DNA of 64,000 nucleotides from a virus (lineage: Duplodnaviria > Heunggongvirae > Uroviricota > Caudoviricetes): the IMG/VR virus record IMGVR_UViG_3300012347_000364, positions 25,019 to 89,018 of that record; one strand, 5' to 3'. The notes below the pieces were generated by a model. It saw only the letters and a program-made list of their open reading frames with translations, was not told where the DNA came from and made no database searches. The position numbers and the translations under genes were made by a program. This document shows positions 36,612 through 54,988 of the stretch, one piece after another (positions within the stretch are counted from its first letter, which is position 1; each line of letters opens with the position of its first letter).

Positions 36612-37754
36612 TTAGCAATCCGATTTTGGTTTCTTGATTGCTTTCATAACCTTAGCCATTTTAGATTCCATGAATCCTTTATGAGTTACGATGCCTCGTG
36701 CTTTGGCTAGGTTTTCACGATCGCTGATCTTACCAGCTTTCTCATCATCTCTTACTTGCTTGACTGTTAATGGCTTGTCGCCGCGCGCCTTGCGTAGATA
36801 TGCTGGAATGTCTTTGGTTTGCAACATTTCGTCGACGTTCTTTCCGCGCAACGCGTTTAGTCTGTTCAATGTCAATTGTGTCTTATCACTCATAGTATCT
36901 TCTCTGTAGAATTTTCTCGTTCCTGGCTTGGAATGGATTGGTTTGCGGATTCGTGGGCTAACTGTTCCGACGGATTGGATATTGCCAGCTGCTTGATCAA
37001 CGATTGCAGGAACAGTTCCTACTGTGCCGCCATTAGGAATGGGCGTATAACGTACCTGCTGGCCAGGAGTGTCTTTTTGATAGGTCTTGCGCAAGCTGTT
37101 GGTGCCCTGTAGACGGTCAGATGATTTGTCTTCCAAGAACAGGTGCGAGTTAGCGCGGCCATACTCACGCATCATAACACCAGCTAGTGCGTTGGCTTCG
37201 TTCTCATATGGAGATCCTGTATCGCCAGCATTTTCTGGCAACGGCTCACGGAGGCTTTGTTTGTAGTGGACGAGCTCATGCGCAAGTGTACGTAATACAT
37301 CCATTGTATGACGACCAGCAGTGTTTAATTCAATACGCTGCTCTTCTGGGAAGAACCCACCAAACGCTTGGAATTCTTTAGACGCATCCCTTTCTTGGTT
37401 CACGTCGATTCGCGGAAGGGAATCTAACCCCAAGTGGTTCTGCGCAAAAATAACAAAGCTGTCGATTGCTTGCTGGACATCTTTCTTCTCCTGCAATTGA
37501 ACTTCTTCTTGCTGGATCCATTGCTTGAACGCTCCTGTACGGCCCCATTTACTACCTGAAGGTAGGCCACCGCCTTTAACACGCGTTTCCTTGCCTGTAT
37601 TCTTATTTACAGCCCATTTATGATCTGCAGCGTTGCGCTTGCCCTTCATTGAGGATGATATTGCAATCTTGTCAGCATGTGTATGACTGTGGCCTTCAAA
37701 ATTCGAATGGCCTTTCATTGTACGTGATATTTTCTTGCGGGTTTCGGCGTCCAT
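36612..37754 (-). CDS. chimeric protein: two N-terminal NUMOD3 motifs plus HExxH zinc-metallopeptidase-like core plus Lys-rich tail
   Basis: AETRKKISRTMKGHS / HADKIAISSSMKGKRN (NUMOD3); LAHELVHYKQ (HExxH); AGGAAAT RBS on the minus strand. Confidence 0.5.
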   Translation of the reverse strand: MDAETRKKISRTMKGHSNFEGHSHTHADKIAISSSMKGKRNAADHKWAVNKNTGKETRVKGGGLPSGSKWGRTGAFKQWIQQEEVQLQEKKDVQQAIDSFVIFAQNHLGLDSLPRIDVNQERDASKEFQAFGGFFPEEQRIELNTAGRHTMDVLRTLAHELVHYKQSLREPLPENAGDTGSPYENEANALAGVMMREYGRANSHLFLEDKSSDRLQGTNSLRKTYQKDTPGQQVRYTPIPNGGTVGTVPAIVDQAAGNIQSVGTVSPRIRKPIHSKPGTRKFYREDTMSDKTQLTLNRLNALRGKNVDEMLQTKDIPAYLRKARGDKPLTVKQVRDDEKAGKISDRENLAKARGIVTHKGFMESKMAKVMKAIKKPKSDC

Positions 37755-37928: not shown

Positions 37929-40673
37929 TTATGCGCCACGTATCATACAGCCTTGGAAGTATGAAATTTGTTGGTATTCGCTAATGGTCCTGTTAGCGCC
38001 ACTGCTTTGATAGACATACACTTGGAAGTAGTCGCCGCTTCCGTTAGCATATGCTATACAACTAACTGATAACGTGAAGAAGTTGGCGCCTGCCTCCGTA
38101 CCCATCTCATTAGTGCCACGTTTATGCTCAGCACCATTCTTGTAAATAACAATCATACGCTCGCCAGTGCCTGAGCTACCATCTATACGAACGGTGGCGT
38201 TGAGTTGATAGTATCCTTCTACGTTTGGTTGGAATTTACCATTAGGGGCATCATAACACCCACCAATATCATATTCTTCATTTCCTAAGTTTACACGCGT
38301 GTTCGAGCCACTAGCAATCGTTTGTGCTGGAGAAGTTGGGTATGCGCTGAATGCCGGGCCATTGACTGCCTTTTTACCATTGACTTGATAATCTCCGCTA
38401 ATACTCATATTACCAGCATCACTCAATATCACTAAGGGTGCAGTGTATGCACTATTGATAATTTCAACAGCACCAGCGCTACTCAAACGGAATGTTTTAT
38501 TGCCGTTAGTAACTCCGCTAGTAGTGTTAGTAACTTTTAAGAAGTCGAAGTATCCGATACCACCTTGTGTGTCTTTGCCAGTAGCAGTTAAAGCAGCTCC
38601 ATTAGCTGTTGCAGGAGTATACGTAACCGTTAATGAATTGTTAATACTAAAGTTGGAACCATTAGCATATGCATACTGATTTGCTGCCTTTGTACCAAGG
38701 TAAGATGTGTTATTAGACGACAGCGTTGCAACATTAGCTGAGAGACCAGCTGTAGTCTGGTATACACTTAGTGAATTAGCATATGCATATTGGTTAGCAG
38801 AAAACCCACCAAGGTTAGTCGCATTGTTAGCAGTACCAGAGATGTTGTCTGGTATCACGATCCCCGACACTTGCTCGACGTTAATAATAACTGCTGGTGT
38901 ACTAGGTACTGTTGGTGTCGTACCAGCTGCATATGAAACCAATTTCACATGGCCGCCTTCGGATGAGTGCATCACCTGAACTCTATCACCAGCGTTGACA
39001 GTCATCATGAACGGAGTAACAGCAATCAAGCTTCCAGGATCCTGACCAGTGTTCTTTCTATTGACTGAAAATCTACTATTAGTGTTTGTTTGATCGGTGC
39101 CGTTGATTCGAACCCACACATTGGCATCGTCGTCGGCATTGCCAGTATTTTCATACTGGATGCTATATTCAATGCGGTATGTGCCGCTATGTGCAAATAC
39201 TATATCGTTGTTGCTACCGACTGTTACGCCGTTTGTTCCATCATATGATGCAGTAATAGGAACGATGTATGCATTGGTTGTATTAGATAAGGCAACGTTA
39301 GCACCGTTATAGTAGAACGCACCAAAGTATCCAGTAGTGAAGTTGTTGGATGTTCCGTTCTGGTTAATCCATTGACCGAGGGACGTATTATATGTCAGTA
39401 CTTGATTGTTCAGCGGACCAGTAATCGTAACATCAGTCAGACTATCAATCGTAGTTGGAATCGTTGGCTTATTCTTAATAAAGCTGAGCTTGCTTGTGTT
39501 TGCTTCTGTCCAGTCTGCTTGAGTGGCAGCTGTGTTTTGTGTAGTATTATCAGAGAATGTAATCGTCGTGTTGACGAGCAAGTTCTGATTAATGATAACG
39601 CTAGTGTCAACACTAGCGGAGCCAATCACTAAGTCTTGTGTTGTATTCGCTAACTGCATTGTATAGTTCTGCAGTATGATACCACCAGCATTGAATCCAG
39701 CGTTAGCGTTGAATGTTGTATTCGATCCACCACCTTGCGTGATGTAGAACACTTGATTAGCAAGAGATAGTACTTGGTCAGGTCCGCCTAATGTATCAGA
39801 GAATGTGATTGAGTTGGCGCCGACCCAAAGCGATTCCCACCGTTGCGTATCACTACCTAAGCTATACATTAAGTTGGTGTGAGGAAGGACGTCGCCAACA
39901 ACAATATCGTTATTCGTGCTGTTGCCAGCAGTTGTTACTTGATCGAGAGTACCAACAATACCATTCGCTGTGATTGTTATAGGATTTGCTATCCACTTCT
40001 TAGTAGATGCGTTATATGTTAGCACATCTCCGTCAGCAGCACCAATCACAGACGATCGTGCAACATCATCCAAGTCTTTCAACCAAACAGCACCACCGCC
40101 AGGTCCTGTCATCGAGATCTTGCTGACCCAACCTTCCAACAATTTCAACTTGCGTTGGATGTCAGCTAAGTCTCTACCAGTAGCAGCAGGTTCTGGTTGA
40201 ACAAATACTGAAGGAGGAGCTTCTTTGGAAATCTTCTTCGCTGCTTCTTTCGCAAGCGTAGGTTCTTCAATGGGAGCAAGGATCGCTGACTTCTCCGTGA
40301 GTTCAACTTCCTCGACGATCTCGTCCAGAACTTTTTCTAGTTGACCATCAGCAACTTCCTCAGGGATAGTCACTTGTGGTTGTTCTGATATAGACTGCGC
40401 GGCTTTAATCTCATCAATCTTTGAAAGAGTACTAGCAAACCGATCAAGAATTGCCTGCTCTTCAGCAGTCTTCTTCTTTTCGTCAGCCATCAACTTGCCG
40501 ATGTCATTAGACAAACCAGCAAACATGCTTTGGAATGCATTTCGGCGCGATTCAGCAACTTGCTGTATCTTCGCTTCTTCCTCAGCAATTTCATCAAGCA
40601 ACTTTTGGTCGACGGGCTCGCCGATACGTTGTTGCATTCTGACCAGTAGTTTTTTTTCTTTAAGTGTCTTCAT
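37929..40673 (-). CDS. tail-fibre-like protein (914 aa) with two C1q/TNF-like jelly-roll domains
   Basis: N-terminal coiled coil; Asn/Thr/Ser/Gly-rich shaft with ANQYAYAN repeats; middle (about 38950-39330) and C-terminal (about 37932-38360) segments fit the C1q pattern F.A....I.F....N.G..Y....G.F.AP..G.Y.F...V..NG......SL.L..GD.V.V. Confidence 0.5.
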   Translation of the reverse strand: MKTLKEKKLLVRMQQRIGEPVDQKLLDEIAEEEAKIQQVAESRRNAFQSMFAGLSNDIGKLMADEKKKTAEEQAILDRFASTLSKIDEIKAAQSISEQPQVTIPEEVADGQLEKVLDEIVEEVELTEKSAILAPIEEPTLAKEAAKKISKEAPPSVFVQPEPAATGRDLADIQRKLKLLEGWVSKISMTGPGGGAVWLKDLDDVARSSVIGAADGDVLTYNASTKKWIANPITITANGIVGTLDQVTTAGNSTNNDIVVGDVLPHTNLMYSLGSDTQRWESLWVGANSITFSDTLGGPDQVLSLANQVFYITQGGGSNTTFNANAGFNAGGIILQNYTMQLANTTQDLVIGSASVDTSVIINQNLLVNTTITFSDNTTQNTAATQADWTEANTSKLSFIKNKPTIPTTIDSLTDVTITGPLNNQVLTYNTSLGQWINQNGTSNNFTTGYFGAFYYNGANVALSNTTNAYIVPITASYDGTNGVTVGSNNDIVFAHSGTYRIEYSIQYENTGNADDDANVWVRINGTDQTNTNSRFSVNRKNTGQDPGSLIAVTPFMMTVNAGDRVQVMHSSEGGHVKLVSYAAGTTPTVPSTPAVIINVEQVSGIVIPDNISGTANNATNLGGFSANQYAYANSLSVYQTTAGLSANVATLSSNNTSYLGTKAANQYAYANGSNFSINNSLTVTYTPATANGAALTATGKDTQGGIGYFDFLKVTNTTSGVTNGNKTFRLSSAGAVEIINSAYTAPLVILSDAGNMSISGDYQVNGKKAVNGPAFSAYPTSPAQTIASGSNTRVNLGNEEYDIGGCYDAPNGKFQPNVEGYYQLNATVRIDGSSGTGERMIVIYKNGAEHKRGTNEMGTEAGANFFTLSVSCIAYANGSGDYFQVYVYQSSGANRTISEYQQISYFQGCMIRGA

Positions 40674-42449: not shown

Positions 42450-42890
42450 ATGACAGATAAACAACACCAATATCTCACGATCCAATACGATAAAATCGTT
42501 GCTGACACTTCTATGCTAGCAGTCACACGTATGCTAGCTCTAAACGTTAGCAAGAATCCGTATATGTCAGTCAAGGACTTTTTGGAGACGTTGAGTGATG
42601 GCGATCTTGACCTTTTGCTGCTAGTTAGCGAAGAGGAAGATAATAAACACTTCGGTGAGTTGATTATCATTTCAGAAATTTTAGCTCAAACAGAGGGAAT
42701 TATTTCCGAACATAAGTCAACGGATGAAATGTTAGACCACACTATTCTGCGAGTTCAGACGCTTGCCTCTTTCTTGGCTATCGAGGGACTTGGACGAAAA
42801 GGTCTTGTTAAAGTATATCGTGAAAATATGTCGTTTGGTGAAGACCAAGGACATAAGATGATTGTTGAACGATTAGATGTTGACAAATAA
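42450..42890 (+). CDS. hypothetical protein (146 aa)
   Basis: ATG 2 nt after the upstream stop. Confidence 0.4.
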   Translation: MTDKQHQYLTIQYDKIVADTSMLAVTRMLALNVSKNPYMSVKDFLETLSDGDLDLLLLVSEEEDNKHFGELIIISEILAQTEGIISEHKSTDEMLDHTILRVQTLASFLAIEGLGRKGLVKVYRENMSFGEDQGHKMIVERLDVDK

Positions 42891-42908
42891 TTAATCACAA
42901 TGTATAAT
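42880..42908 (+). promoter_or_regulatory. perfect-consensus sigma70 promoter TTGACA-17-TATAAT
   Basis: TTGACA 42880-42885 overlaps the upstream stop; TATAAT 42903-42908; upstream of the NadM-Nudix gene. Confidence 0.6.
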
Positions 42909-42972: not shown

Positions 42973-43992
42973 ATGTCAAAACCATATGGCACCCTTGTCC
43001 TCATTGGACGCTTCCAACCGTTTCACAACGCTCACCTTGAGATTATCAAGCGTGCGACTGCATTAACAGATAACCTTGTAATCATTACAGGTTCAGCAAA
43101 TCAACCACGTACATATAAGAATCCGTTCACTTCTGCTGAACGCGAACAGATGATCAAAGCCGCAACAGGCGGACTGACATTAAAGATTCACATCGAATCT
43201 AACCCCGATACAATCTACAACGACCAAGCATGGGCCGTTCGCATTCAGTCGATTGTTAGTCGCTACCGCATTCTCGGTACACGCACTGCCGTCATTGGCC
43301 ACAAGAAAGACGATAGCTCATTCTACTTGGATATGTTCCCGCAATGGGAGTATGTTGATGTGGAAGAGATCGAGCCTCTGAGTGCAGTCAACATCCGCGA
43401 CCTGTACTTCAAGCGTGACGCCAACATGAATTTCATTAAAGCAGTCGTGCCACAAACTACATTTGTGTACCTGGATGCTTTCAAAGATACGCCAGAGTAT
43501 GAGCAAATTATCAAAGAGCGCGAGTTCGTTGAGAACTACAGGAAGCAGTATGCATCTTTGCCATACCCGCCAATCTTCTCTACCGCTGATGCTGTTGTGA
43601 TTCAATCCGGTCACATCCTGCTGATCAAACGTCGCGCAGAGCCAGGTAAAGGTTTATGGGCATTGCCAGGCGGTTATGTGAACGCTAACACCGATAAGTC
43701 TGTAGAAGATGCAGCTATCCGTGAGTTGCGCGAAGAAACTATGATTAAAGTGCCAGGACCAGTATTGCGTGGGTCTATTGTTCGTAGCAAAGTATTCGAT
43801 GCAATCGATCGTAGTCCTCGTGGCCGCATCATTACACATGCATTCCACATTGTGTTGCCAGATGGTGAGTTGCCTAAAGTAAAAGGTTCCGATGATGCTG
43901 AAAAAGCACGTTGGGTGCCTATTGCAGAAGTGAAGTCGGAAGAGTGTTTCGAAGACCACTACGAAATCATCCAACACTTCTTGGGAGCTTGA
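42973..43992 (+). CDS. natV: bifunctional NMN adenylyltransferase (NadM-type) plus Nudix ADP-ribose pyrophosphatase
   Basis: Nucleotidyltransferase motif GRFQPFHNAH near the N-terminus; Nudix box GGYVNANTDKSVEDAAIRELREETMIKV; same architecture as vibriophage KVP40 NatV. Confidence 0.75.
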   Translation: MSKPYGTLVLIGRFQPFHNAHLEIIKRATALTDNLVIITGSANQPRTYKNPFTSAEREQMIKAATGGLTLKIHIESNPDTIYNDQAWAVRIQSIVSRYRILGTRTAVIGHKKDDSSFYLDMFPQWEYVDVEEIEPLSAVNIRDLYFKRDANMNFIKAVVPQTTFVYLDAFKDTPEYEQIIKEREFVENYRKQYASLPYPPIFSTADAVVIQSGHILLIKRRAEPGKGLWALPGGYVNANTDKSVEDAAIRELREETMIKVPGPVLRGSIVRSKVFDAIDRSPRGRIITHAFHIVLPDGELPKVKGSDDAEKARWVPIAEVKSEECFEDHYEIIQHFLGA

Positions 43993-43993
43993 T

Positions 43994-44203
43994 ATGCACC
44001 CAAGCAACTACCAACCTAAGCGTAGTCAACAACTCTTCCTAGCAGAACAAGTTAGGACTCAAGTTTTCAACGACTCGATGGATCAGATTATTGTACATCA
44101 TGTGTTGGAAGATACTCCAACCCGATTGTATTTACAAATTGAACGTCGTGCAACAAGTCCAATGGGCTTTGCAGATATTTACTTTGAAAGGGTGGTGCTG
44201 TAA
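43994..44203 (+). CDS. hypothetical protein (69 aa)
   Basis: ATG 2 nt after the upstream stop. Confidence 0.35.
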   Translation: MHPSNYQPKRSQQLFLAEQVRTQVFNDSMDQIIVHHVLEDTPTRLYLQIERRATSPMGFADIYFERVVL

Positions 44204-44400
44204 TGGTAACAGTAGTAAGCACTGAACCACATCCGTCCGTGGTTAAAGAAGCGATCTGCAGGAACTGTGGTGCAACATTGAACTACGTTCCCGTCGATAT
44301 TAAAGAAGAAGTACAATCGGACTACGGCGGTGGGCGTGAGACGGTACGTTTCATTAAATGCCCTCCATGCGGTCATAAAGTGATTGTGAAGGGATATTGA
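44203..44400 (+). CDS. zinc-ribbon protein (65 aa)
   Basis: CRNCGA...CPPCGH. Confidence 0.4.
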   Translation: MVTVVSTEPHPSVVKEAICRNCGATLNYVPVDIKEEVQSDYGGGRETVRFIKCPPCGHKVIVKGY

Positions 44401-44402
44401 AA

Positions 44403-44561
44403 ATGGAATGGACCCTGTTTAATTGGATCAACGTATTCTTCTTGTGTGTCAATGGATACCTCGCATGTGAATTCTTCAAAGCGGACAATCCATTTCCAGC
44501 CTACCTTAATCTGATAGCAAGTGCGACTAATGCTGCATGCATTGCTGCAATTCTAATGTAA
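44403..44561 (+). CDS. small TM peptide (52 aa; not in the ORF track)
   Basis: ATG 3 nt after the upstream stop; WINVFFLCVNGYLACEFF hydrophobic. Confidence 0.3.
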   Translation: MEWTLFNWINVFFLCVNGYLACEFFKADNPFPAYLNLIASATNAACIAAILM

Positions 44562-44570
44562 GGAATTTTT

Positions 44571-45521
44571 ATGTGGAAAAATGTTAATGTTTTCGAGGAT
44601 GAGAAAGAGCATGTCAAAAAATATGTGTTTGAAAAAGACGACATCGCAGTTGAATCTGTCCTTTATCGCTACCCTACTTACGCTGAACGTACCGTACTCT
44701 GTATTAGTACTATGTGTGGTTGCCCCATGGGCTGTCGCTTCTGTGGTACTGGTGATTACTTCGTTCGTTCCCTGACAGCAGAAGAGATTGTCGGACAAGC
44801 GGAATACATCCTAGGCACACAAATCGATGGACTAGATCCTGCTAGCATTAAGAAGCTGCAGATCATGGTAATGTCGATGGGCGAGCCTGCTCTGAATAAA
44901 GCATTGGAACAAGCATTCGAAGTGCTGTATGCAAAGTACCCTAATGCTGCATTACTGATCAGTTCGAGTGGTCCGAAGGTGGATTACACATGGATTCGCA
45001 ATATGAGTGTTCGTATCCCTACAGTCGGATTGCAGTTCAGCATTCACGAAAGCACAGATGAGGCTCGCGACAAGTTGATTCCTTTCGAGAAGAAACTCAA
45101 CTTGCAGGAAATTGCCGATCAGGGAGTTCGTTGGTATTTGGATACTGGTCGCAAACCATACTTCAACTACTGCGCTCACGAAGGTAATAATACTGACGAG
45201 GATGTTGCACGTCTTCGTGAGTTGTTCCATCCAAAGATTTGGGAAGCGACTGTTTCTGTTATTTGTGAGCGCGATGCTCACGAAGAAGCAACCAACAACA
45301 AGCAACGTGACTTGGCAATTGAATTTGGAAACAAGTTGGTTGCTGCTGACTACAACGTTCGTGTGTTTGATCCTGCTGGTCAAGATACGATCGGTGGTGG
45401 TTGCGGTCAATTGTGGTATGTGCAAGACTGGATGAAAGATCACCCAGAGCACGTTAAGCCATCGGTCGGCTGTGGCCTACAAAAAGTGCATACTCCTAAG
45501 GAGTGGAACGTTGGCAACTAA
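44571..45521 (+). CDS. radical SAM enzyme of the RlmN/Cfr family (N-terminally truncated)
   Basis: [23 protein letters not shown] vs RlmN [32 protein letters not shown] vs MGMGEPLLN; ISSSGP vs LSTSGV; C-terminal GGGCGQLW vs AACGQLAG. Lacks the ~100-aa N-terminal domain of RlmN. Confidence 0.7.
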   Translation: [316 protein letters not shown]

Positions 45522-45759
45522 AAAGAAAGCAACGGCCGTTGTTGAGGCTCCTGACATTCTGCCTGACGAACCAATCGATCGCAAAGGTTGGAAATATTAT
45601 TGCAACGACGAGTTAGTAACTGAAGAAGTTTTTAATTCGATCACTAAAGATCATCAAGCGTGGATTGATGAACAAGAGAAGATTAAAGAAGCTGCTGCAT
45701 TAGCCACACAGAAGGAAGATGCGAAGCTTGCAAAGAAGAAAGTGAAGAAGACAAAATGA
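45472..45759 (+). CDS. hypothetical Lys-rich protein (start uncertain)
   Basis: Overlaps the radical-SAM gene end by 50 nt. Confidence 0.3.
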   Translation: MAYKKCILLRSGTLATKKKATAVVEAPDILPDEPIDRKGWKYYCNDELVTEEVFNSITKDHQAWIDEQEKIKEAAALATQKEDAKLAKKKVKKTK

Positions 45760-46235
45760 TGTTGCGTACAAAAGGTAATATTATAGATCTCGCTGAAAGT
45801 GGTTCGTTTGACTTGATCATCCAAGGCTGCAATTGTTTTAATACAATGGGTAGCGGGCTTGCCAAAGAGATTCGTGCTCGCTACCCAGACGCATATGAAG
45901 CAGACCAACAAACTACTGCTGGCGATCGTACTAAGTTGGGAAACTTTTCTGCTGCTATTATCGATAAGGATGGTCATATATTTGTGATTGTTAATGCATA
46001 CACACAATACCACTACAACCTCCGTGGTGCGAAAGCGGACTTATTTGAGTATGAGGCATTAGGACGTGTTCTAGACAAGATTCGTGATTGTGCGGGACAC
46101 ACGCGAATTGGTATTCCTATGATTGGGATGGGGCTTGCTGGTGGAGACCCAGAGCGTATCATGCCAATGATTGAAAAGTTTGCACAAGACTGCACAAATC
46201 GTGGCGGTTCGGTAACATTAGTGGAGTTTGCATGA
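45756..46235 (+). CDS. macro domain protein (ADP-ribose binding/processing)
   Basis: DLIIQGCNCFNTMGSGLAKEI (cf. macro IVNAAN..LGGGGV..AI) and GIPMIGMGLAGG (cf. AFPAISTGVYG). Confidence 0.55.
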   Translation: MMLRTKGNIIDLAESGSFDLIIQGCNCFNTMGSGLAKEIRARYPDAYEADQQTTAGDRTKLGNFSAAIIDKDGHIFVIVNAYTQYHYNLRGAKADLFEYEALGRVLDKIRDCAGHTRIGIPMIGMGLAGGDPERIMPMIEKFAQDCTNRGGSVTLVEFA

Positions 46236-46741
46236 TAGTTCTCAAACCCCCAGCACCCATCGACGTAGGTAATAAATTCTCTATATTCCTTGCCGGCTCG
46301 ATTGAAATGGGTAAGGCAGAAGATTGGCAATATCGTATTTCAAAAACATTTGAAGACTATAGCGATAACTTAGTGTTACTCAACCCACGACGTGATGGTT
46401 GGGACTGGAACACGAAACAATCAATCAATAACACAACATTTAAAGGACAGGTGGATTGGGAGTTAGATGCTCTCGAAGCAGCTGACCTTATTATGTACTA
46501 CTTCGTACCTGGTACAATGAGTCCCATTTCATTACTAGAATTTGGATTATATGCCAACACAACGAAACACATCATAGTGTGCTGCCCAGAAGGATTCTGG
46601 CGCAAAGGAAACATCGACGTAGTGTGTGATAGATTCATTATCCCATTATTCGATGACTTAAACATGGTGGTAGAAGAATTGCATAATAAACTTCCACAAT
46701 GGATTCAAGCAAAACAGGTGTTGACATCGACCTCTAACTGA
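46232..46741 (+). CDS. nucleoside 2-deoxyribosyltransferase-like (NDT/SLOG Rossmann) protein
   Basis: FLAGSIEMG N-terminal Rossmann strand; SLLEFGLYANTTKHII matches the NDT-family motif (..FEIGYAxALGKPI). Confidence 0.45.
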   Translation: MIVLKPPAPIDVGNKFSIFLAGSIEMGKAEDWQYRISKTFEDYSDNLVLLNPRRDGWDWNTKQSINNTTFKGQVDWELDALEAADLIMYYFVPGTMSPISLLEFGLYANTTKHIIVCCPEGFWRKGNIDVVCDRFIIPLFDDLNMVVEELHNKLPQWIQAKQVLTSTSN

Positions 46742-46749
46742 TGTATAAT
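46721..46749 (+). promoter_or_regulatory. perfect-consensus sigma70 promoter TTGACA-17-TATAAT
   Basis: Within the 3' end of the upstream gene; TATAAT 46744-46749; 55 nt upstream of the NAMPT ATG (AAGGAG RBS). Confidence 0.6.
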
Positions 46750-46803: not shown

Positions 46804-48204
46804 ATGCGTTTAGCAAAAAACATTATCCTGAATACTGACAGCTACAAAGTGTCAATGTTCAAACAGTATCCTGCTGGTACTACTGGTGTATACAGCTACA
46901 TTGAGTCTCGTGGTGGTCGCTACGATAAGACTGTAATGTTTGGGCTGCAGGCATTCATTAAAGAATACTTGCTTACCCCAATCAACCAAATGGACATTGA
47001 GATTGCAGACGAGATTCTGACAGCTCACGGTGAACCGTTTAACCGCGAAGGTTGGCAGTATATTGTAGACAAATACAACGGCTATCTTCCTGTCGTTATC
47101 CGTGCCGTTCCTGAAGGTACTGTGGTTCCTGTTAGCAACGTACTTGCTACTATTGAAAATACTGATCCAGAATGTTTCTGGTTGACAACTTGGCTTGAGA
47201 CTGCATTGCTTCGTGCTGTATGGTATGGTACGACTGTAGCTACTCAAAGCTGGAGTATTAAGCAAGTGATTGCTGACTATTTGGAGAAAACTGGTGATCC
47301 CACTTCTATTGATTTTAAGTTGCACGATTTCGGTGCTCGAGGCGTATCTTCTATGGAGAGTGCTGGCATTGGCGGGGCAGCTCACCTTGTCAACTTTATG
47401 GGATCGGATACTATTAGCGGTGTATTGTTTGCTCGTGAGTACTATAACGCTGGGATCGCTGGCTTTAGCATTCCTGCCGCAGAGCACAGCACTATCACTT
47501 CTTGGGGTCGTGACAACGAAGTAAAAGCATATGAAAACATGCTCACTCAGTTCGCGAAGCCTGGTGCTATTCTCGCTGTCGTTTCTGATTCTTATGATAT
47601 CTACAATGCTGTCCGTAACTTGTGGGGCACCGAGCTCCGTGATCGAGTTATTGCAAGTGGCGCAACTGTGGTTATTCGTCCTGATAGCGGGGATCCAGTC
47701 AGCGTTAATAAACAGCTGATTGAAATCTTAGGAGAGAAATTTGGTTACACAACAAACGCCAAAGGATTCAAAGTCCTCAACAACGTTCGCCTCATCCAGG
47801 GCGACGGAGTTAATGAGCTTAGCATTCGTAGTATTCTTGGGGCTTTTATGGCCATGGGTTGGTCTGCTGATAATATTGCGTTTGGTATGGGTGGCGCATT
47901 GTTACAACAGATTGATCGTGACACCCAACGATTCGCAATGAAGTGTTCTGCTGCTCTTATCAATGGAGATTGGGTCGATGTTCAAAAAGATCCGGTCACT
48001 GATAGTGGCAAGCGCTCGAAAGCAGGTCGTGTCTCTCTGTGGACTAATAGTGGTGGTGAATTCGCTTCTAGCGTATCTGCTCCTACTGGCTGGTCTGACA
48101 AAGGGATTGGTGGTTGGACTAACGCGCTGGACGAAGTCTACCGCGATGGTAAACTGGTCAAAGAATATACCTTCGATGAAGTACGAGCCAATACTCGCAA
48201 GTAA
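46804..48204 (+). CDS. nadV: nicotinamide phosphoribosyltransferase (NAMPT)
   Basis: NTDSYKVSMFKQYP; GWQYIVDKYNGYLPVVIRAVPEGTVVP; TIENTDPECFWLTTWLETAL; KLHDFGARGVSSMESAGIGGAAHLVNFMGSDT. Near-collinear with human/KVP40 NAMPT. Confidence 0.85.
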   Translation: MRLAKNIILNTDSYKVSMFKQYPAGTTGVYSYIESRGGRYDKTVMFGLQAFIKEYLLTPINQMDIEIADEILTAHGEPFNREGWQYIVDKYNGYLPVVIRAVPEGTVVPVSNVLATIENTDPECFWLTTWLETALLRAVWYGTTVATQSWSIKQVIADYLEKTGDPTSIDFKLHDFGARGVSSMESAGIGGAAHLVNFMGSDTISGVLFAREYYNAGIAGFSIPAAEHSTITSWGRDNEVKAYENMLTQFAKPGAILAVVSDSYDIYNAVRNLWGTELRDRVIASGATVVIRPDSGDPVSVNKQLIEILGEKFGYTTNAKGFKVLNNVRLIQGDGVNELSIRSILGAFMAMGWSADNIAFGMGGALLQQIDRDTQRFAMKCSAALINGDWVDVQKDPVTDSGKRSKAGRVSLWTNSGGEFASSVSAPTGWSDKGIGGWTNALDEVYRDGKLVKEYTFDEVRANTRK

Positions 48205-48222
48205 TAGCTACTAGCTAGCACG

Positions 48223-48253
48223 AAAGGCCACCGTTGTGTGGCCTTTCCTTTTT
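48223..48253 (+). terminator. rho-independent terminator AAAGGCCAC-cgttgt-GTGGCCTTT plus TCCTTTTT
   Basis: 9-bp stem, 6-nt loop, T-run; 19 nt after the NAMPT stop. Confidence 0.6.
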
Positions 48254-51800: not shown

Positions 51801-52820
51801 TTGAAAATGCGTAAACTCGCTACTATCCGTAAGATTGATCAACTGCTTCCTATTGAAGGTGCAGATGCGATCGAATGTGCTATTGTTGGTGGTTGGAAAG
51901 TTGTTGCACAAAAAGGTCTATACAAAGAAGGTGATCTTGCTGTGTATTTTGAGATTGACTCGTGGATTCCTACTGAGCTGGCTCCATTCCTGTCTAAAGG
52001 CAAAGAGCCTCGTGAGTTTGAAGGTGTTAAGGGTGAACGTCTGAAGACTATCAAGCTACGTGGTCAGTTGTCTCAAGGTTTGCTAATGCCTCTGGCTGAG
52101 ATCGATAAATTCTTCACCACAAAACCACATTGGTCTGAAGATGAAGATTTGACTGAAATCTTGAACATCAAGAAGTGGGAAAAGCCAATCAATGCGCAGC
52201 TGGCTGGCGTATGTCGTGGTAACTTCCCGTCTCTGATTCCGAAGACTGATCAAGAACGTGCTCAAAACCTGAAGAAGGAAATTGCTGCAGCTCGAGGTCT
52301 TGAATTCGAAGTGACGGAAAAGCTAGAAGGTTCTTCTATGACCTGCTACTTGATCAACGATGAGTTTGGTGTTTGCTCTCGTAACCTGGATTTGAAGGAG
52401 ACAGAAGGCAACGCATTCTGGACAATTGCTCGTCGTCTGGGTATTGAAGAAAAGATGCGTGCACTTGGTGCAATGGGTGGCCTGGCTATCCAAGGTGAGT
52501 TGATCGGTCCTGGCATCCAAGGTAACATCTACAAGTTGAATGATACACAGTTCCGTGTGTTTGATGTATATGCCGTCCAGGGTGGCGAATACCTCACTCC
52601 CGATGCCCGCCGCGTATTGATTGATGGTATGGGTCTCGACCATGTGCCTGTTATCGCTACGCGATTTGTGTTGGAGCATGGTGTCGAACAATTGTTGGCA
52701 ATGGCTGAATATAAGTCTGAGCTTGCTAATGTCGAACGCGAAGGCATTGTGTTTAAACAAGTCGATGGCGGCATGACGTTCAAGGCTATTTCTAACAAAT
52801 ATTTGCTAGGTGAAAAGTAA
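51801..52820 (+). CDS. ATP-dependent RNA ligase (Rnl2/DRB0094-like nucleotidyltransferase) with N-terminal tRNA-binding OB (Myf/Trbp111-like) domain
   Basis: N-terminal LPIEGADAIECAIVGGWKVV (cf. hP.AD.L.V..VDVG); motif I EKLEGSS, III FRVFDVY, IV EREGIVFK (cf. T4 Rnl2 EGYVLK), V KAISNKY. Confidence 0.55.
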   Translation: MKMRKLATIRKIDQLLPIEGADAIECAIVGGWKVVAQKGLYKEGDLAVYFEIDSWIPTELAPFLSKGKEPREFEGVKGERLKTIKLRGQLSQGLLMPLAEIDKFFTTKPHWSEDEDLTEILNIKKWEKPINAQLAGVCRGNFPSLIPKTDQERAQNLKKEIAAARGLEFEVTEKLEGSSMTCYLINDEFGVCSRNLDLKETEGNAFWTIARRLGIEEKMRALGAMGGLAIQGELIGPGIQGNIYKLNDTQFRVFDVYAVQGGEYLTPDARRVLIDGMGLDHVPVIATRFVLEHGVEQLLAMAEYKSELANVEREGIVFKQVDGGMTFKAISNKYLLGEK

Positions 52821-53566: not shown

Positions 53567-54488
53567 GGGTTGGCTTGCGTCGATTGACGATATTGAGTTG
53601 CGCGATGAAGTCAGGAAGCATTACATCGTAACAGGTGGTGCAATCACCTCTATGTTGTTAGGTGACTTGCCGAACGACTACGATGTGTATTTGGATGATA
53701 CCGCTGTCGCTGCTCGCTTAGCAAACTATTACATCAGCCGTTTGCCTACGCCCGACAACGAATGTACTAAGACGCCTATCGTTACTGTGCCGCCAGAAGG
53801 CGGCCGCGTAGAGATCAAAGTCCAATCTGCTGGCGTTGCTGGTGAGGATATGGATCAGACGAAGTATGAATATTTCGAGCAGTATGCAGATGGTGCATCA
53901 AAGTCAGCATCATATTTGGATGCAATGGCTTCTCGTGACACTGGCAAATACAAAGCACTAGCAATTACTACGAACGCTATTACGCTGTCTGATAAGATCC
54001 AGATTGTACTGCGGTTTGTTGGTCCTGCAAATGAGATTCATAAGAACTATGATTTCGTTCACACCACAAATTACTTCACAGAAGACACTGGTGTTGTATT
54101 CAACGAAGCAGCACTCGAATCTATCCTTGCACGTGAGTTGAAGTATGTTGGTTCGTTGTATCCAATCTGTTCGATCTTCCGTATTAAGAAGTTCATCAAA
54201 CGTGGATGGACAATCACGGCTGGCGAAATGTTGAAAATCGCATACGACATTAGCAAGCTCGACCTTGACGATCCTACTGTATTACAGGAACAGCTGACTG
54301 GCGTCGATGCTGCATACTTCCGTCAAATTCTTGATTTAATTAGGCAAGAAGGTAAGCCAATCGACCGCACGTATTTGTTTGAGTTGGTTAACCGTATCTT
54401 TGACGAAGATTGGGAAGTAGAACAAGCGATCGTCGAAGCAAACACTTCCGTAGAAGTATCAACATCGCTAAGTGATTTATTCAAATAA
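53493..54488 (+). CDS. nucleotidyltransferase with CCA-adding-enzyme/poly(A)-polymerase head domain (331 aa)
   Basis: HYIVTGGAITSMLLGDLPNDYDVYL matches the class II CCA/PAP head motif (vYLVGGaVRDlLLGr...DiDi). Confidence 0.5.
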   Translation: MESTSTVKRGFKRKTIEQTIRNKIKGWLASIDDIELRDEVRKHYIVTGGAITSMLLGDLPNDYDVYLDDTAVAARLANYYISRLPTPDNECTKTPIVTVPPEGGRVEIKVQSAGVAGEDMDQTKYEYFEQYADGASKSASYLDAMASRDTGKYKALAITTNAITLSDKIQIVLRFVGPANEIHKNYDFVHTTNYFTEDTGVVFNEAALESILARELKYVGSLYPICSIFRIKKFIKRGWTITAGEMLKIAYDISKLDLDDPTVLQEQLTGVDAAYFRQILDLIRQEGKPIDRTYLFELVNRIFDEDWEVEQAIVEANTSVEVSTSLSDLFK

Positions 54489-54988
54489 TGAAAAAGATTT
54501 ATGTAGACATGGACGGAGTGCTTACCGATTTCGGTAAACGCTACAAGGAACTGTTTGGACGCACCCCTCGAGAAGTTATCCGCGAACAGAAGGAAAAGGG
54601 CGAGTATGGCAGACTGTGGAAGCAGTTCTGTGAAGACCGACATTTTGCCAACCTCGACAAGTATCCTGGTTGTGATGACTTGCTAGAAGCGTTGAGCAAA
54701 CTCAAAAATGTACAGATTGCTATTTTGACATCTTCTGGTGGATTTGATTACCATGGTATGGTACAATTGCAAAAGATCGAATGGTTGTGTAGTAATGGTA
54801 TTCCGTACCCTGCTATCATTGTTCCTGGTCGTCGGTTTAAAGCAGGGTACGCATCCAACGATAGCTTTATGATTGACGATACGCCAGACGTTATTGACAA
54901 CTTTCGGGCCAAGGGCGGCCATGGTGTTATCCATAAAGCTGATGCTAAGTGGGATACCTTTTATCAACTGGAGCAATTTCTAAAATGA
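54488..54988 (+). CDS. HAD-superfamily 5'(3')-deoxyribonucleotidase-like phosphatase
   Basis: N-terminal MKKIYVDMDGVLTDF (DxDG motif I); the 166-aa size fits the NT5C-type family. Confidence 0.55.
   Translation: MKKIYVDMDGVLTDFGKRYKELFGRTPREVIREQKEKGEYGRLWKQFCEDRHFANLDKYPGCDDLLEALSKLKNVQIAILTSSGGFDYHGMVQLQKIEWLCSNGIPYPAIIVPGRRFKAGYASNDSFMIDDTPDVIDNFRAKGGHGVIHKADAKWDTFYQLEQFLK

What the first reader, a model, noticed from the sequence alone, without database searches (positions are those of the whole stretch)
44571..45521. Phage-encoded, N-terminally truncated RlmN/Cfr-family radical-SAM enzyme
Seen in sequence: the 316-aa protein aligns by eye with E. coli RlmN across the CxxxCxxC cluster ([14 protein letters not shown]), the MGEPALN motif, the SSSG motif and the C-terminal catalytic Cys (GGCGQLW). 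It starts only about 30 aa before the Fe-S cysteines, so the ~100-aa N-terminal accessory domain of RlmN is missing.

Established knowledge: RlmN methylates C2 of A2503 in 23S rRNA and A37 in tRNAs; its paralogue Cfr methylates C8 of A2503 and gives multi-drug ribosome resistance.

Inference: a phage copy could remodel host ribosomes or tRNAs (for example the phage's own tRNAs) during infection, or protect a target from a defence nuclease. Its substrate specificity is likely altered by the missing domain.
Basis: partly seen in the sequence, partly recalled or inferred. Interest (0 to 1): 0.65.

Follow-up and report, generated by a model that had tools for sequence, protein, structure and literature searches.

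The report
Phage RlmN/Cfr-like enzyme, remodelled substrate site
A phage gene encodes a stripped-down relative of the RNA-methylating enzymes RlmN and Cfr that keeps their catalytic machinery but has lost their RNA-docking domain and RNA-contact residues, and it sits inside an operon that rebuilds NAD+, so it is probably a counter-defence enzyme whose target is still unknown.

Summary
The ORF (44571-45521, +, 316 aa) is real and belongs to the RlmN/Cfr radical-SAM methyl-synthase superfamily by sequence (TIGR00048 E=4e-29) and by fold. It keeps the Fe-S cysteines (C51/C55/C58) and both mechanistic cysteines (C44, C278).

It is not an RlmN or Cfr orthologue:
- Scores are far below the curated cut-offs (101.6 vs 290 bits).
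- Canonical RlmN+Cfr form a clade that excludes it (87/100 bootstraps).
- The HhH2 RNA-docking domain (PF21016) is absent.
- Core residues that contact RNA and are invariant in RlmN/Cfr are replaced by mostly non-polar residues that are invariant or nearly so in the phage clade.
- The catalytic core is acidic.

It belongs to a large family found mainly in phages, whose members are about 295-320 aa. In the window it lies in a sigma70-promoter-to-terminator unit between NMNAT-Nudix (NatV) and NAMPT (NadV). Across 83 lineages, 31% have NAD+/ADP-ribose genes within 2.5 kb. Other members sit in phosphoesterase-rSAM-RtcB RNA-repair cassettes or in tRNA arrays.

Most likely it C-methylates an adenine in a non-canonical substrate as a counter-defence function. 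I favour RNA (about 0.45); an NAD+/ADP-ribose-type nucleotide is the main rival (about 0.3).

The parts
42880..42908 (+). Perfect sigma70 consensus promoter (TTGACA-17-TATAAT) upstream of the NatV-like gene; probable start of the transcription unit that contains the radical-SAM gene
   Evidence: 12/12 match. There are 5 such sites in the window, all on the + strand, with 0.00 expected from shuffles.
42973..43992 (+). NatV-like bifunctional NMN adenylyltransferase (CTP_transf_like) plus NUDIX hydrolase
   Evidence: PF01467 1.4e-15, PF00293 2.8e-21; phrog_395 3.7e-79
43994..44203 (+). Small ORF (69 aa), no family match
44203..44400 (+). Small zinc-ribbon protein (65 aa; weak DUF7479 match below Pfam's cut-off; phrog_2834). 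It lies directly upstream of the radical-SAM gene in close relatives.
   Evidence: (homologue at -5 to -8 bp in L011-L016)
44397..44561 (+). Small hydrophobic ORF (54 aa), no family match
44571..45521 (+). Short RlmN/Cfr-like radical-SAM methyl synthase (316 aa) that lacks the HhH2 N-terminal domain
44700..44744 (+). Codons for C44 (equivalent to E. coli RlmN C118 / Cfr C105, the resolving Cys) and the [4Fe-4S] motif C51-x3-C55-x2-C58
   Evidence: invariant in 66 family members; aligned to RlmN/Cfr
45171..45266 (+). Region carrying the clade-specific invariant cysteines C201 (45171-45173) and C232 (45264-45266). Canonical RlmN/Cfr have V/I/G/A and Asn at these positions.
45402..45404 (+). Codon for C278 in GGGCGQL (equivalent to RlmN C355 / Cfr C338, the methyl-carrier Cys)
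45472..45759 (+). ORF of 95 aa (GTG start, overlaps the 3' end of the radical-SAM gene by 50 nt) with a lysine-rich C-terminus; no family match
45756..46235 (+). phrog_335 protein (annotated 'phosphatase') with weak Macro-domain similarity
   Evidence: 1e-47; PF20016 ThsA_Macro 0.0063, below the cut-off
46232..46741 (+). Nucleoside 2-deoxyribosyltransferase-like protein (PF15891)
   Evidence: 6.5e-30
46721..46749 (+). Second perfect sigma70 consensus promoter, upstream of NadV
46804..48204 (+). NadV-like nicotinamide phosphoribosyltransferase (NAMPT)
   Evidence: PF04095 6.3e-63, PF18127 5.7e-28; phrog_448 1.1e-165
48222..48247 (+). Intrinsic-terminator-like hairpin (10-bp stem, 6 GC pairs, T tract) directly after the NadV stop codon; probable end of the unit

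Best explanation
The gene encodes a member of a large, so far undescribed clade of the RlmN/Cfr (class A) radical-SAM methyl synthases, carried mainly by phages. I describe the explanation in four layers and mark which are shown and which are inferred.

1. Shown. The whole catalytic apparatus is kept: the [4Fe-4S] CxxxCxxC motif, the methyl-carrier Cys (C278), the resolving Cys (C44), the SAM-binding motifs, the beta-prime extension and the RlmN/Cfr fold.

2. Inferred from that. It uses the RlmN/Cfr ping-pong mechanism. SAM methylates C278. A 5'-deoxyadenosyl radical abstracts H from that methyl group. The methylene radical adds to an sp2 carbon of the substrate, by homology adenine C2 or C8. 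C44 then resolves the covalent adduct.

3. Shown. It is not an RlmN or Cfr orthologue. The HhH2 RNA-docking domain is absent from the whole clade. The core residues that hold the rRNA/tRNA backbone in RlmN/Cfr are replaced by mostly non-polar residues that are invariant or nearly so in the clade. The core is acidic. Canonical recognition of 23S A2503 or tRNA A37 is therefore unlikely.

4. Shown for context, inferred for function. In the window it is co-transcribed from a host-type sigma70 promoter with the NAD+ salvage genes NatV and NadV. In relatives it recurs next to NAD+/ADP-ribose enzymes of several unrelated pathways, in phosphoesterase-rSAM-RtcB RNA-repair cassettes and in tRNA gene arrays.

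I therefore read it as a counter-defence accessory enzyme. My preferred target class, by a modest margin (about 0.45), is an RNA of the translation apparatus, most plausibly a tRNA that is bound in a new way. The target adenosine may lack a 3' neighbour, as at a cleaved end. C-methylation would protect or 'immunise' that RNA against defence ribonucleases, by analogy with Hen1 in bacterial Pnkp/Hen1 repair-and-modify systems. It would be deployed alongside NAD+ reconstitution against NAD+-depleting defences.
For: Superfamily membership and retained chemistry:
- TIGR00048 4.3e-29; Cfr and RlmN structures E=1e-13 to 1e-20.
- C44, C51, C55, C58 and C278 are invariant in 66 family members.
- AF2 model with pLDDT 88.4.
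- the top 11 Foldseek hits are all RlmN/Cfr. The next families appear at 1e-5.

Not an orthologue of RlmN or Cfr:
- 101.6 bits vs a cut-off of 290 for RlmN; 83-85 bits vs 468-550 for Cfr.
- the canonical RlmN+Cfr clade excludes it in 87/100 bootstraps.
- PF21016 is found in E. coli RlmN and Cfr but not in this protein.
-, with contacts taken from the Cfr-rRNA cryo-EM paper: R184->A (17/20), R327->F (20/20), N288->T (19/20), S/T103->V (20/20), S/T187->L (19/20).
- core net charge -9 in the window subclade vs +3 (median) in canonical enzymes.

Operon.

RNA context:
- Metallophos(-254 to -1128 bp)-rSAM-RtcB(+548 to +1787 bp) cassette in L041, L049, L051, L058 and L061, with RtcB alone within 1.8 kb downstream in L037 and L084; NadV-rSAM-RNA ligase in L057; an RNA ligase 2.7-8 kb downstream in the window subclade.
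- tRNA genes within 5 kb in 11/90 loci and within the 6-kb flanks in 7/54, some within 200 bp (L125, L130).
- ANB28 carries RtcB and tRNAs around the gene.
- R40, R194, K/R195 and Y34 are retained at positions that contact the RNA U-turn in Cfr.

Established knowledge (my own, not tested here): all characterised family members act on RNA, and RlmN-type turnover is slow, which suits a macromolecular target.
Against: - No direct evidence for any substrate.
- Loss of the HhH2 domain, loss of invariant Arg/Ser/Thr/Asn RNA contacts and an acidic core all argue against RNA binding in general, not only against canonical binding.
- The most frequent neighbours are NAD+/ADP-ribose enzymes, not RNA enzymes. 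That is 26/83 lineages, against about 4 of the 43 lineages in the first 90 loci (counted) with an RNA ligase.
- One relative is fused to a NUDIX domain inside an NAD cassette.
- Most loci (about 55-60% of lineages) show none of these contexts. Many sit among replication and recombination genes such as SSB, VRR-NUC, ERF, YqaJ and a protein with a DPPY motif typical of DNA methyltransferases (not checked against Pfam).
- The Hen1 analogy is a recalled resemblance, not a test.
Confidence: 0.45

Rival explanations
1. The enzyme acts on a free adenine nucleotide of the NAD+/ADP-ribose family (NAD+, ADPR, NMN-adenylate precursors, ATP, or a defence signal derived from NAD+), not on RNA. It would be a third, accessory component of phage NAD+ reconstitution modules. 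For example, it could make a C-methylated NAD+/ADPR analogue that resists or inhibits defence NADases, or it could mark ADPR for recycling.
For: -: the NatV-rSAM-NadV order, and variants of it, occur in loci of 57-95% identity.
- over 145 loci and 83 lineages, the commonest same-strand neighbours within 2.5 kb are NAMPT/Namat (17 lineages), NMNAT(-Nudix) (14), isochorismatase/nicotinamidase-like (6), Macro (4), Adps (3), NDT-like (3), NADAR (3) and NadE (3). At least one of these is present in 26/83 lineages (31%).
- the published background is about 4.3% (NARP1) and about 1.1% (NARP2) of phage genomes.
- the gene is flanked on both sides by NAD genes in 10 lineages. NAD-gene hits per 2.5-kb distance bin are 13/2/0/0.
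- the linkage also holds for the unrelated NARP1-type pair (Vibrio phages; L123).
- an rSAM-NUDIX fusion is followed by an NAPRTase-family gene and a stand-alone NMNAT (L091).
- a more distant relative is fused to HD+HD_assoc, the dNTPase type.
- loss of the RNA-docking domain, loss of the contacts to the 3'-neighbour phosphate, and an acidic core.
- the gene lies in the same transcription unit as NatV and NadV.
Against: - No class A radical-SAM methylase is known to act on a small molecule (my own knowledge).
- The stoichiometric methyl-Cys mechanism is slow, a poor fit for millimolar metabolite pools. An inhibitor-making role would ease this objection.
- The complete genome of Stenotrophomonas phage ANB28 carries the enzyme (57% identity) but no NAD-salvage homologue.
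- About 69% of lineages have no NAD/ADPR gene nearby.
- The Nudix fusion is a singleton, and its Nudix is only generically similar to that of NatV.
- Two-gene NARP modules suffice experimentally without it.
- Co-location could reflect anti-defence or accessory-island clustering.
Confidence: 0.3
2. It is a functional RlmN or Cfr equivalent. It would methylate 23S rRNA A2503 (C2 or C8) and/or tRNA A37 in the canonical way despite the missing domain, remodelling host ribosomes and possibly giving Cfr-like antibiotic resistance.
For: -: the closest characterised relatives are RlmN and Cfr.
- all catalytic residues are kept.
- public annotations call relatives 'ribosomal RNA large subunit methyltransferase N' or '23S rRNA (adenine2503-C2)-methyltransferase'.
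Against: -: scores are a third or less of every equivalog cut-off.
- the protein lies outside the RlmN+Cfr clade.
- the HhH2 domain is described as crucial for rRNA binding, and it is absent here.
- the invariant contacts to A2503, U2504 and helix 90 (R184, R185, N288, R327, S/T103, S/T187) are replaced.
- Bacterial hosts generally have their own RlmN, so there is little to gain (my own knowledge).
- The database names are automatic transfers.
Confidence: 0.07
3. It modifies something else: phage or host DNA adenines (an anti-restriction modification), a protein, or it has drifted to a different radical chemistry.
For: -: in many prophage-like and gut-phage loci the gene sits among replication and recombination genes (SSB, VRR-NUC, ERF, YqaJ, primase-helicase, and a protein with a DPPY motif typical of DNA methyltransferases, not checked against Pfam). 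DNA-modification genes are often found in such modules.
- two extra clade-specific invariant cysteines (C201, C232) sit on adjacent strands, which hints at altered chemistry or an extra redox pair.
- some side branches have lost both mechanistic cysteines (P0137, P0164, P0231), which shows functional drift within the wider radiation.
Against: - Both mechanistic cysteines are invariant in the window's own clade.
- Genome-wide DNA modification by a slow enzyme that consumes two SAM per methyl group is implausible (inference).
- An acidic core argues against DNA binding.
- No recurrent DNA-modification partner gene was found.
Confidence: 0.15

Closest known systems
RlmN (dual-specificity 23S rRNA m2A2503 / tRNA m2A37 methyl synthase; TIGR00048; PDB 3RFA, 5HR6)
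   Same: - Radical-SAM partial TIM barrel with the beta-prime extension.
- CxxxCxxC cluster motif.
- Resolving Cys (C118 -> C44) and methyl-carrier Cys (C355 -> C278) in a GxCGQL motif.
- MGEP, S(S/T)SG and FS(L/I)H motifs.
- Foldseek E about 1e-15, TM about 0.67-0.71.
   Different: - No HhH2 N-terminal domain (PF21016).
- 101.6 bits vs the 290 cut-off.
- Lies outside the RlmN+Cfr clade.
- Conserved RNA-contact residues are replaced.
- Extra invariant Cys at 201 and 232.
- Acidic core.
- Phage-borne, and linked to NAD+ salvage or RNA repair genes rather than housekeeping genes.
Cfr (23S rRNA m8A2503 methyl synthase; TIGR04432 / NF000424; PDB 9P0P and the Cfr-rRNA cryo-EM complex)
   Same: It is the best single sequence hit among solved structures (E=6.7e-20). 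It shares the same catalytic cysteines and the same fold.
   Different: - 83-85 bits vs cut-offs of 468-550.
- Cfr residues contacting A2503, U2504 and H90 (R184, R185, N288, R327, S103, S153, S187) are not conserved.
- No NTD.
- No reason to expect PhLOPSA resistance.
Phage NAD+ reconstitution pathways NARP2 (NadV + NatV) and NARP1 (Adps + Namat)
   Same: The gene is embedded in, and probably co-transcribed with, a NARP2-type pair in the window. In relatives it sits beside NARP1-type and NARP2-type pairs.
   Different: NARP1 and NARP2 are defined and validated as two-gene systems with no radical-SAM component. Most family members are not next to NAD genes, and phage ANB28 has none at all.
Bacterial Pnkp/Hen1 'repair and modify' RNA repair (methylation of repaired RNA so that it cannot be cut again)
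   Same: In several phage lineages the gene lies between an end-healing-type phosphoesterase and the sealing ligase RtcB. That is the position a modifying component would take.
   Different: Hen1 is a SAM-dependent 2'-O-methyltransferase that is unrelated in fold and chemistry. The analogy comes from my own knowledge and gene order only. No activity was tested.

Membership tests
RlmN/Cfr superfamily (class A radical-SAM methyl synthases) | CxxxCxxC motif ligating the [4Fe-4S] cluster | tested here: met
   C51-x3-C55-x2-C58, invariant in 66 family members
RlmN/Cfr superfamily (class A radical-SAM methyl synthases) | Two mechanistic cysteines: the resolving Cys 7 residues before the cluster (RlmN C118 / Cfr C105) and the methyl-carrier Cys in the C-terminal CGQL loop (RlmN C355 / Cfr C338) | tested here: met
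   C44 and C278 align to them and are invariant in the clade
RlmN/Cfr superfamily (class A radical-SAM methyl synthases) | Fold: partial TIM barrel with an N-terminal beta-sheet extension, closest to RlmN/Cfr structures | tested here: met
   AF2 pLDDT 88.4. Foldseek hits 1-11 are all RlmN/Cfr (E=3.8e-17 to 5.9e-12); the next family appears at 1.4e-5.
RlmN/Cfr superfamily (class A radical-SAM methyl synthases) | Methyl transfer to an sp2 carbon through a methyl-Cys intermediate | not testable with these tools
   Needs biochemistry. It is inferred only from the conserved residues.
RlmN (TIGR00048 equivalog) | Profile score at or above the curated cut-off | tested here: not met
   101.6 bits vs 290
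RlmN (TIGR00048 equivalog) | N-terminal HhH2 RNA-binding domain (PF21016 RlmN_N) | tested here: not met
   Absent from the window protein. Positive controls: E. coli RlmN 110 bits, Cfr 24.7 bits. The alignment begins at TIGR00048 position 71.
RlmN (TIGR00048 equivalog) | Conserved core residues that contact the target nucleotide and RNA backbone | tested here: not met
   In Cfr numbering: R184->A, R185->A/Q/E/S, N288->T, R327->F, S/T103->V, S/T187->L. These are invariant or nearly so in 11 canonical sequences and are replaced in 17-20 of 20 clade members.
RlmN (TIGR00048 equivalog) | Phylogenetic placement inside the RlmN clade | tested here: not met
   The canonical full-length RlmN+Cfr group is monophyletic in 87/100 NJ bootstraps and excludes the window protein.
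RlmN (TIGR00048 equivalog) | m2A2503 / m2A37 activity | not testable with these tools
   Needs expression in a delta-rlmN strain and LC-MS or primer extension.
Cfr (TIGR04432 / NF000424 / NF011024) | Profile score at or above the curated cut-off | tested here: not met
   83.3-85.4 bits vs 468-550
Cfr (TIGR04432 / NF000424 / NF011024) | Placement in the Cfr clade with Cfr and Cfr(D) | tested here: not met
   Cfr+Cfr(D) group together at 100/100, nested within the canonical clade and far from the window protein.
Cfr (TIGR04432 / NF000424 / NF011024) | m8A2503 formation and the PhLOPSA resistance phenotype | not testable with these tools
   Needs MIC and modification assays.
NARP2-type NAD+ reconstitution module (as an accessory member) | Physical and transcriptional linkage with NadV (NAMPT) and NatV (NMNAT-Nudix) | tested here: met
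   The window gene lies between NatV and NadV, bounded by a perfect promoter and a terminator. The same linkage is found in 17 of 21 loci at 65% identity or more.
NARP2-type NAD+ reconstitution module (as an accessory member) | Linkage conserved across the whole protein family | tested here: inconclusive
   NAD/ADPR genes lie within 2.5 kb in 26/83 lineages (31%). This is strongly enriched over the background of about 1-4% of phage genomes, but it is not universal. The ANB28 genome has none.
NARP2-type NAD+ reconstitution module (as an accessory member) | A functional contribution to NAD+ reconstitution or to counter-defence | not testable with these tools
   Published modules work as two genes. 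A role for the radical-SAM enzyme has not been tested.

The most novel reading that the evidence does not exclude
The enzyme would be the first class A (RlmN/Cfr-type) radical-SAM methyl synthase that acts on a small molecule. It would C-methylate the adenine of NAD+, ADP-ribose or a related nucleotide, or conceivably the electron-poor pyridinium ring by Minisci-like radical addition. It would form an unrecognised third component of phage NAD+ reconstitution modules. One possible role is making an NAD+ analogue that defence NADases (TIR, SIR2, SEFIR) cannot cleave or are inhibited by.
Probability: 0.27. Interest if true: 0.9.

Novelty: new variant of a known kind. Interest (0 to 1): 0.66.

Why it matters
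RlmN and Cfr are the only characterised enzymes that methylate unactivated sp2 carbons through a protein-bound methyl-cysteine, and both act on one rRNA or tRNA adenosine. This protein belongs to a large clade, found mainly in phages, that keeps that rare chemistry but has discarded the RNA-docking domain and rebuilt the substrate site. It therefore very probably has a new substrate.

Its repeated placement inside NAD+ reconstitution cassettes of several unrelated types (NARP1-type, NARP2-type, NadE and nicotinamidase-like genes), and elsewhere inside RNA-repair cassettes, ties it to the two main targets of abortive-infection defences: NAD+ pools and tRNAs.

Finding the substrate would do one of two things. 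It would either reveal a new RNA-protecting counter-defence, or extend class A radical-SAM methylation to nucleotide cofactors and add a component to phage NAD+ counter-defence.

There is also a practical point. Public annotations that call these proteins 'RlmN' or '23S rRNA (adenine2503-C2)-methyltransferase' are probably wrong, and this phage gene should not be read as a Cfr-like resistance gene.

Tried and rejected
- Megablast of the 5.4-kb block against 50,697 phage records gave no match. The genome itself is not in that collection.
- I tested whether the rSAM-NUDIX fusion (P0140) is recurrent. It is a singleton cluster on one 9.3-kb contig, and its Nudix shares only the generic Nudix box with that of NatV. 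I kept it as weak supporting evidence only.
- I tested whether longer clade members (P0122, P0124, P0128, P0279) carry an alternative RNA-binding N-domain, or a fusion to the small upstream ORFs. The extensions are unrelated to each other, to RlmN_N and to the window's small ORFs.
- I tested whether the enzyme always co-occurs with phage NAD genes at genome level. This was rejected: the complete ANB28 genome has none.
- I tried to define the clade by the two extra cysteines (C201/C232). That group is not monophyletic in the NJ tree, and an 'Asn232' group has 0/100 support. These are traits of the core of the radiation, not a clean synapomorphy.
- I searched for one universal partner gene over 145 loci and found none. 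The best is NAMPT/Namat, in 17/83 lineages.
- Literature searches for a phage RlmN/Cfr-like enzyme, or for a radical-SAM partner of NARP or RtcB, found nothing. I checked papers on NARP1/2/3, viral NAD-ADPr systems, AntiDefenseFinder, jumbo phages and Cfr/RlmN evolution.
- Whole-protein pI alone was too variable to use, so I replaced it with the charge of the aligned core only.
- The overall count of promoter-like sites in the region is not above the shuffled expectation (21 vs 18.3). Only the perfect 12/12 sites are exceptional.
Full report
OBSERVATION. The window has an ATG ORF at 44571..45521 on the + strand that encodes 316 aa. A Shine-Dalgarno AGGA lies 7 nt upstream, and a TAA stop at 44559-44561 closes the frame just before it, so the short N-terminus is not an artefact of ORF calling. 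Two of its numbers are off. The first cluster cysteine is residue 51, not about 30. The missing piece is the roughly 60-residue HhH2 domain, not about 100 aa. That domain is Pfam PF21016, found at residues 17-76 of E. coli RlmN and 10-56 of Cfr in a positive control, and it is absent here. In the alignment the protein starts at about residue 79 of E. coli RlmN and about residue 63 of Cfr. It therefore keeps the beta-sheet extension (beta-prime 1-3) that joins the HhH2 domain to the radical-SAM core in Cfr and RlmN.

SUPERFAMILY MEMBERSHIP. Pfam sees only a generic Radical_SAM domain (31.7 bits). NCBIfam places the protein with RlmN (TIGR00048, E=4.3e-29) and Cfr (E about 1e-23 to 1e-24), while every other radical-SAM family scores E>=0.01. 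Among solved structures the best sequence hits are Cfr (9p0p, 6.7e-20) and RlmN. An AlphaFold2 model built on 66 family sequences is confident (pLDDT 88.4, pTM 0.88). Its eleven best Foldseek matches in the PDB are all RlmN/Cfr chains (E=3.8e-17 to 5.9e-12, TM 0.57-0.71), and the next families (NifB, viperin) appear only at about 1e-5. The five cysteines that define the RlmN/Cfr mechanism are invariant across the family. They are the cluster ligands C51, C55 and C58; C44, at the position of RlmN C118 / Cfr C105; and C278, at the position of RlmN C355 / Cfr C338. Also invariant are E28, S157 and H159, at positions where Cfr mutagenesis (E91A, S212A, H214A) reduced or abolished resistance. Retention of the methyl-cysteine ping-pong chemistry is thus a well-supported inference, but it is not shown.

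NOT RlmN AND NOT Cfr. Five independent tests say this is not an orthologue of either enzyme.
1. Scores reach a third or less of the curated equivalog cut-offs: 101.6 vs 290 bits for RlmN and 83-85 vs 468-550 bits for Cfr.
2. In a search of 1.84 billion representative proteins, only 69 clusters match at E<=1e-30. Full-length RlmN/Cfr proteins of 350-370 aa appear only near 1e-19.
3. In a neighbour-joining tree of 84 sequences with E. coli and S. aureus RlmN, Cfr and Cfr(D) as references, all canonical full-length proteins form one clade (87/100 bootstraps) that excludes the window protein. The window protein sits in a broad radiation of short forms, and its own subclade has 99/100 support.
4. 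I took the contact residues from the 2026 Cfr-rRNA cryo-EM study. Core residues that hold the target nucleotide and the RNA backbone, and that are invariant or nearly so in 11 canonical sequences, are replaced in the phage clade by different residues that are themselves invariant or nearly so, and mostly non-polar. The changes are R184->A (17/20), R185->A/Q/E/S, N288->T (19/20), R327->F (20/20), S/T103->V (20/20), S/T187->L (19/20), S182->P and F/K/R330->A. Some positions near the RNA U-turn are kept: R40, Y34, R194 and K/R195.
5. The aligned catalytic core is acidic: median pI 5.4 and net charge -7.5 in the clade, and -9 in the window subclade. Canonical enzymes have pI 8.5 and net charge +3.
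The clade also has two extra invariant cysteines, C201 and C232, on adjacent strands, where RlmN/Cfr have V/I/G/A and Asn. Their role is unexplained.

THE FAMILY. The short form is a large family with conserved length. More than 120 clusters at 70-90% identity are all about 310-320 aa, and a second large subclade is about 295 aa. IMG/VR holds 240 matches. Cultured phages of Stenotrophomonas, Xanthomonas, Vibrio, Salmonella and Aeromonas carry homologues at 46-57% identity. The family also occurs in bacterial and archaeal assemblies, including isolates. These are presumably prophages, which I did not verify. Longer members carry heterogeneous N-terminal extensions that are unrelated to the HhH2 domain. 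Public names for family members range from 'RlmN' to 'prohibitin family protein' to 'hypothetical'.

CONTEXT IN THE WINDOW. The gene lies in a tightly packed + strand block:
- NatV-like NMNAT-Nudix (42973-43992)
- three small ORFs, including a zinc-ribbon protein
- the radical-SAM gene
- a 95-aa ORF
- a phrog_335 protein with weak Macro similarity
- a nucleoside-deoxyribosyltransferase-like protein
- NadV-like NAMPT (46804-48204)
A perfect TTGACA-17-TATAAT promoter lies at 42880-42908, and a second one lies before NadV at 46721-46749. A strong hairpin-plus-T-tract terminator follows NadV at 48222-48247. Perfect promoters occur five times in the window, all on the + strand, with 0.00 expected by chance. 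The radical-SAM gene is therefore very probably expressed from host-type promoters together with an NAD+ salvage (NARP2-type) pair. The window itself comes from a large lytic phage with RNR, primase, DNA ligase, an RNA ligase (51801-52820) and two tRNAs.

CONTEXT ACROSS THE FAMILY. I collected 145 loci, which fall into 83 lineages after dereplication at 80% identity. They came from phage records, metagenome contigs, IMG/VR and GTDB genomes. I then clustered the same-strand ORFs within 2.5 kb. The most frequent neighbour families are:
- NAMPT/Namat-type phosphoribosyltransferases: 17 lineages
- NMNAT(-Nudix): 14 lineages
- isochorismatase/nicotinamidase-like: 6 lineages
- Macro-like: 4 lineages
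- Adps-like, NDT-like, NADAR, NAD synthase NadE and Rnl1 RNA ligase: 3 lineages each
Identities were checked. At least one NAD+/ADP-ribose gene is present in 26/83 lineages (31%), and an NAD-synthesis enzyme in 23/83. The gene is flanked on both sides by such enzymes in 10 lineages. In loci with full +-10 kb flanks, NAD-gene hits fall 13/2/0/0 over successive 2.5-kb bins. The published background is about 4.3% (NARP1) and about 1.1% (NARP2) of phage genomes, counted anywhere in the genome. The linkage involves unrelated pathways: NARP2-type in the window group and several jumbo-phage contigs, and NARP1-type in the Vibrio phages and L123. In one contig the enzyme is fused to a NUDIX domain and followed by an NAPRTase-family gene and a stand-alone NMNAT. 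That fusion is a singleton, and its Nudix is only generically like that of NatV.

A second context is RNA repair. The order calcineurin-like phosphoesterase, radical-SAM gene, RtcB occurs in five loci, with the gene in the middle, and two further loci have RtcB alone within 1.8 kb downstream. One locus has NadV-rSAM-RNA ligase. The window subclade has an RNA ligase 2.7-8 kb downstream. A third context is tRNA arrays: 11/90 loci have a tRNA gene within 5 kb and 7/54 within the 6-kb flanks, sometimes within 200 bp.

The linkage is not obligatory. About 69% of lineages have no NAD/ADPR gene nearby, and the complete ANB28 genome has no NAD-salvage homologue at all, although it has RtcB and tRNAs around the gene. 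Many gut-phage and prophage-like loci place the gene among replication and recombination genes.

INTERPRETATION. Shown: the protein is a divergent, HhH2-less RlmN/Cfr-like enzyme with an intact catalytic set and a rebuilt substrate site, expressed with NAD+ salvage genes. Inferred: it C-methylates an sp2 carbon, by homology adenine C2 or C8, of a non-canonical substrate, and it serves as a counter-defence accessory function. NAD+ pools and tRNAs are the two classic targets of abortive-infection effectors, and the gene travels with countermeasures to both.

I weigh the target classes as follows.
- An RNA bound in a new way: about 0.45. In favour are the family precedent, the slow stoichiometric mechanism, the RNA-repair and tRNA contexts, and the retained basic residues at the U-turn positions. 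The loss of the four hydroxyl contacts to the 3'-neighbour phosphate would fit a terminal adenosine at a cleaved end, as in a Hen1-like 'repair and immunise' role.
- A free NAD+/ADP-ribose-type nucleotide: about 0.3. In favour are the dominant neighbour signal, the Nudix fusion, the loss of RNA-binding features and the acidic core. Against are the kinetics, ANB28 and the lack of precedent.
- Canonical A2503/A37 methylation: below 0.1.
- DNA, protein or altered chemistry: about 0.15.
None of these can be settled by computation. The C44A covalent trap would settle it.

NOVELTY. Searches of the held literature found no description of a phage RlmN/Cfr-like clade, or of a radical-SAM gene associated with NAD+ reconstitution or RtcB cassettes. 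They covered papers on NARP1/2/3, viral NAD-ADPr systems, AntiDefenseFinder, jumbo-phage genomics and Cfr/RlmN evolution. NARP1 and NARP2 are defined there as two-gene systems. I rate the finding a new variant of a known kind. The chemistry is probably conserved, while the architecture, substrate site, carriers and genomic associations are new.

Noticed in passing
window 10027-10055, 29197-29225, 42880-42908, 46721-46749, 56630-56658 (all + strand): There are five perfect sigma70 consensus promoters (TTGACA-17-TATAAT), with 0.00 expected by chance. Three have a TG-extended -10 element. They look like this phage's early, host-RNA-polymerase promoters and could be used to map its early transcription units.
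   Followed up: partly
window 22430-22505 and 22511-22585 (+): Two adjacent phage tRNA genes, tRNA-Arg(TCT) and tRNA-Met(CAT), lie 22 kb upstream of the radical-SAM gene.
   Followed up: no
window 51801-52820 (+) and 54488-54988 (+): An RNA ligase (PF09414 plus the PHA02142 OB-fold domain; phrog_968) and an NT5C-type 5'-nucleotidase lie a few kb downstream of the NAD block. The RNA ligase is conserved 2.7-8 kb downstream of the radical-SAM gene in the closest relatives (L011, L012, L014, L016, L018, L019).
   Followed up: partly
window 37929-40673 (-), 36612-37754 (-), 16441-18678 (+): Three large ORFs (914, 380 and 745 aa) have no PHROG match at E<=1e-5. The two on the minus strand coincide with a local reversal of AT skew (36-40 kb) in an otherwise + strand genome.
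   Followed up: no
L041, L049, L051, L058, L061 (also L037, L084): A compact cassette of calcineurin-like phosphoesterase, short RlmN/Cfr-like enzyme and RtcB occurs in viral contigs. The radical-SAM gene is in the middle, in the position a modifying component of an RNA repair system would take.
   Followed up: partly
L091 2043-5374: The gene order here is rSAM-NUDIX fusion (468 aa), then an NAPRTase-family gene, then a stand-alone NMNAT. The Nudix domain that is fused to NMNAT in NatV-type proteins is attached to the radical-SAM enzyme instead. It is a single contig.
   Followed up: yes
P0222 (759 aa): A more distant short RlmN/Cfr-like protein (34% identity) is fused to HD plus HD_assoc domains, the dGTPase/dNTP-triphosphohydrolase type. 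This is another link between this radiation and free nucleotides. I could not fetch its genomic context.
   Followed up: partly
P0279, P0286, P0302, P0304 (gut-phage subclade; L096 6001-7125): These proteins share a conserved 76-aa, cysteine-rich N-terminal extension (7 Cys, including a CxxC) that is unrelated to the RlmN HhH2 domain. It could be a zinc-binding or auxiliary-cluster domain.
   Followed up: partly
P0137, P0164, P0231: Side branches of the short radiation have lost both mechanistic cysteines (Ser at the C44 position, Pro at the C278 position) but keep the Fe-S motif. RlmN-type methyl transfer is impossible for them, so they must use some other radical chemistry.
   Followed up: no
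Phage records PQ434692.1, OR529408.1, OQ436456.1, OX241444.1: Orthologous genes are annotated inconsistently: as 'ribosomal RNA large subunit methyltransferase N', 'prohibitin family protein', 'putative radical SAM protein, partial' or 'hypothetical protein'. JGI names them '23S rRNA (adenine2503-C2)-methyltransferase'. All of these names are probably wrong or uninformative.
   Followed up: yes
L117, L123, L152 and L109, L120, L124, L126, L127: Family members sit on contigs binned as archaeal MAGs (Methanobacterium, Woesearchaeota) and in several Saccharibacteria MAGs. L123 has an adjacent NARP1-type pair. These may be viral contigs mis-binned into MAGs, or real prophages of unusual hosts.
   Followed up: no
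L102 23068-24225 (Stenotrophomonas phage ANB28): ANB28 has no NAD-salvage genes. It encodes an RtcB-type RNA ligase about 10 kb from the radical-SAM gene, and the radical-SAM gene lies inside the phage's tRNA gene array.
   Followed up: yes
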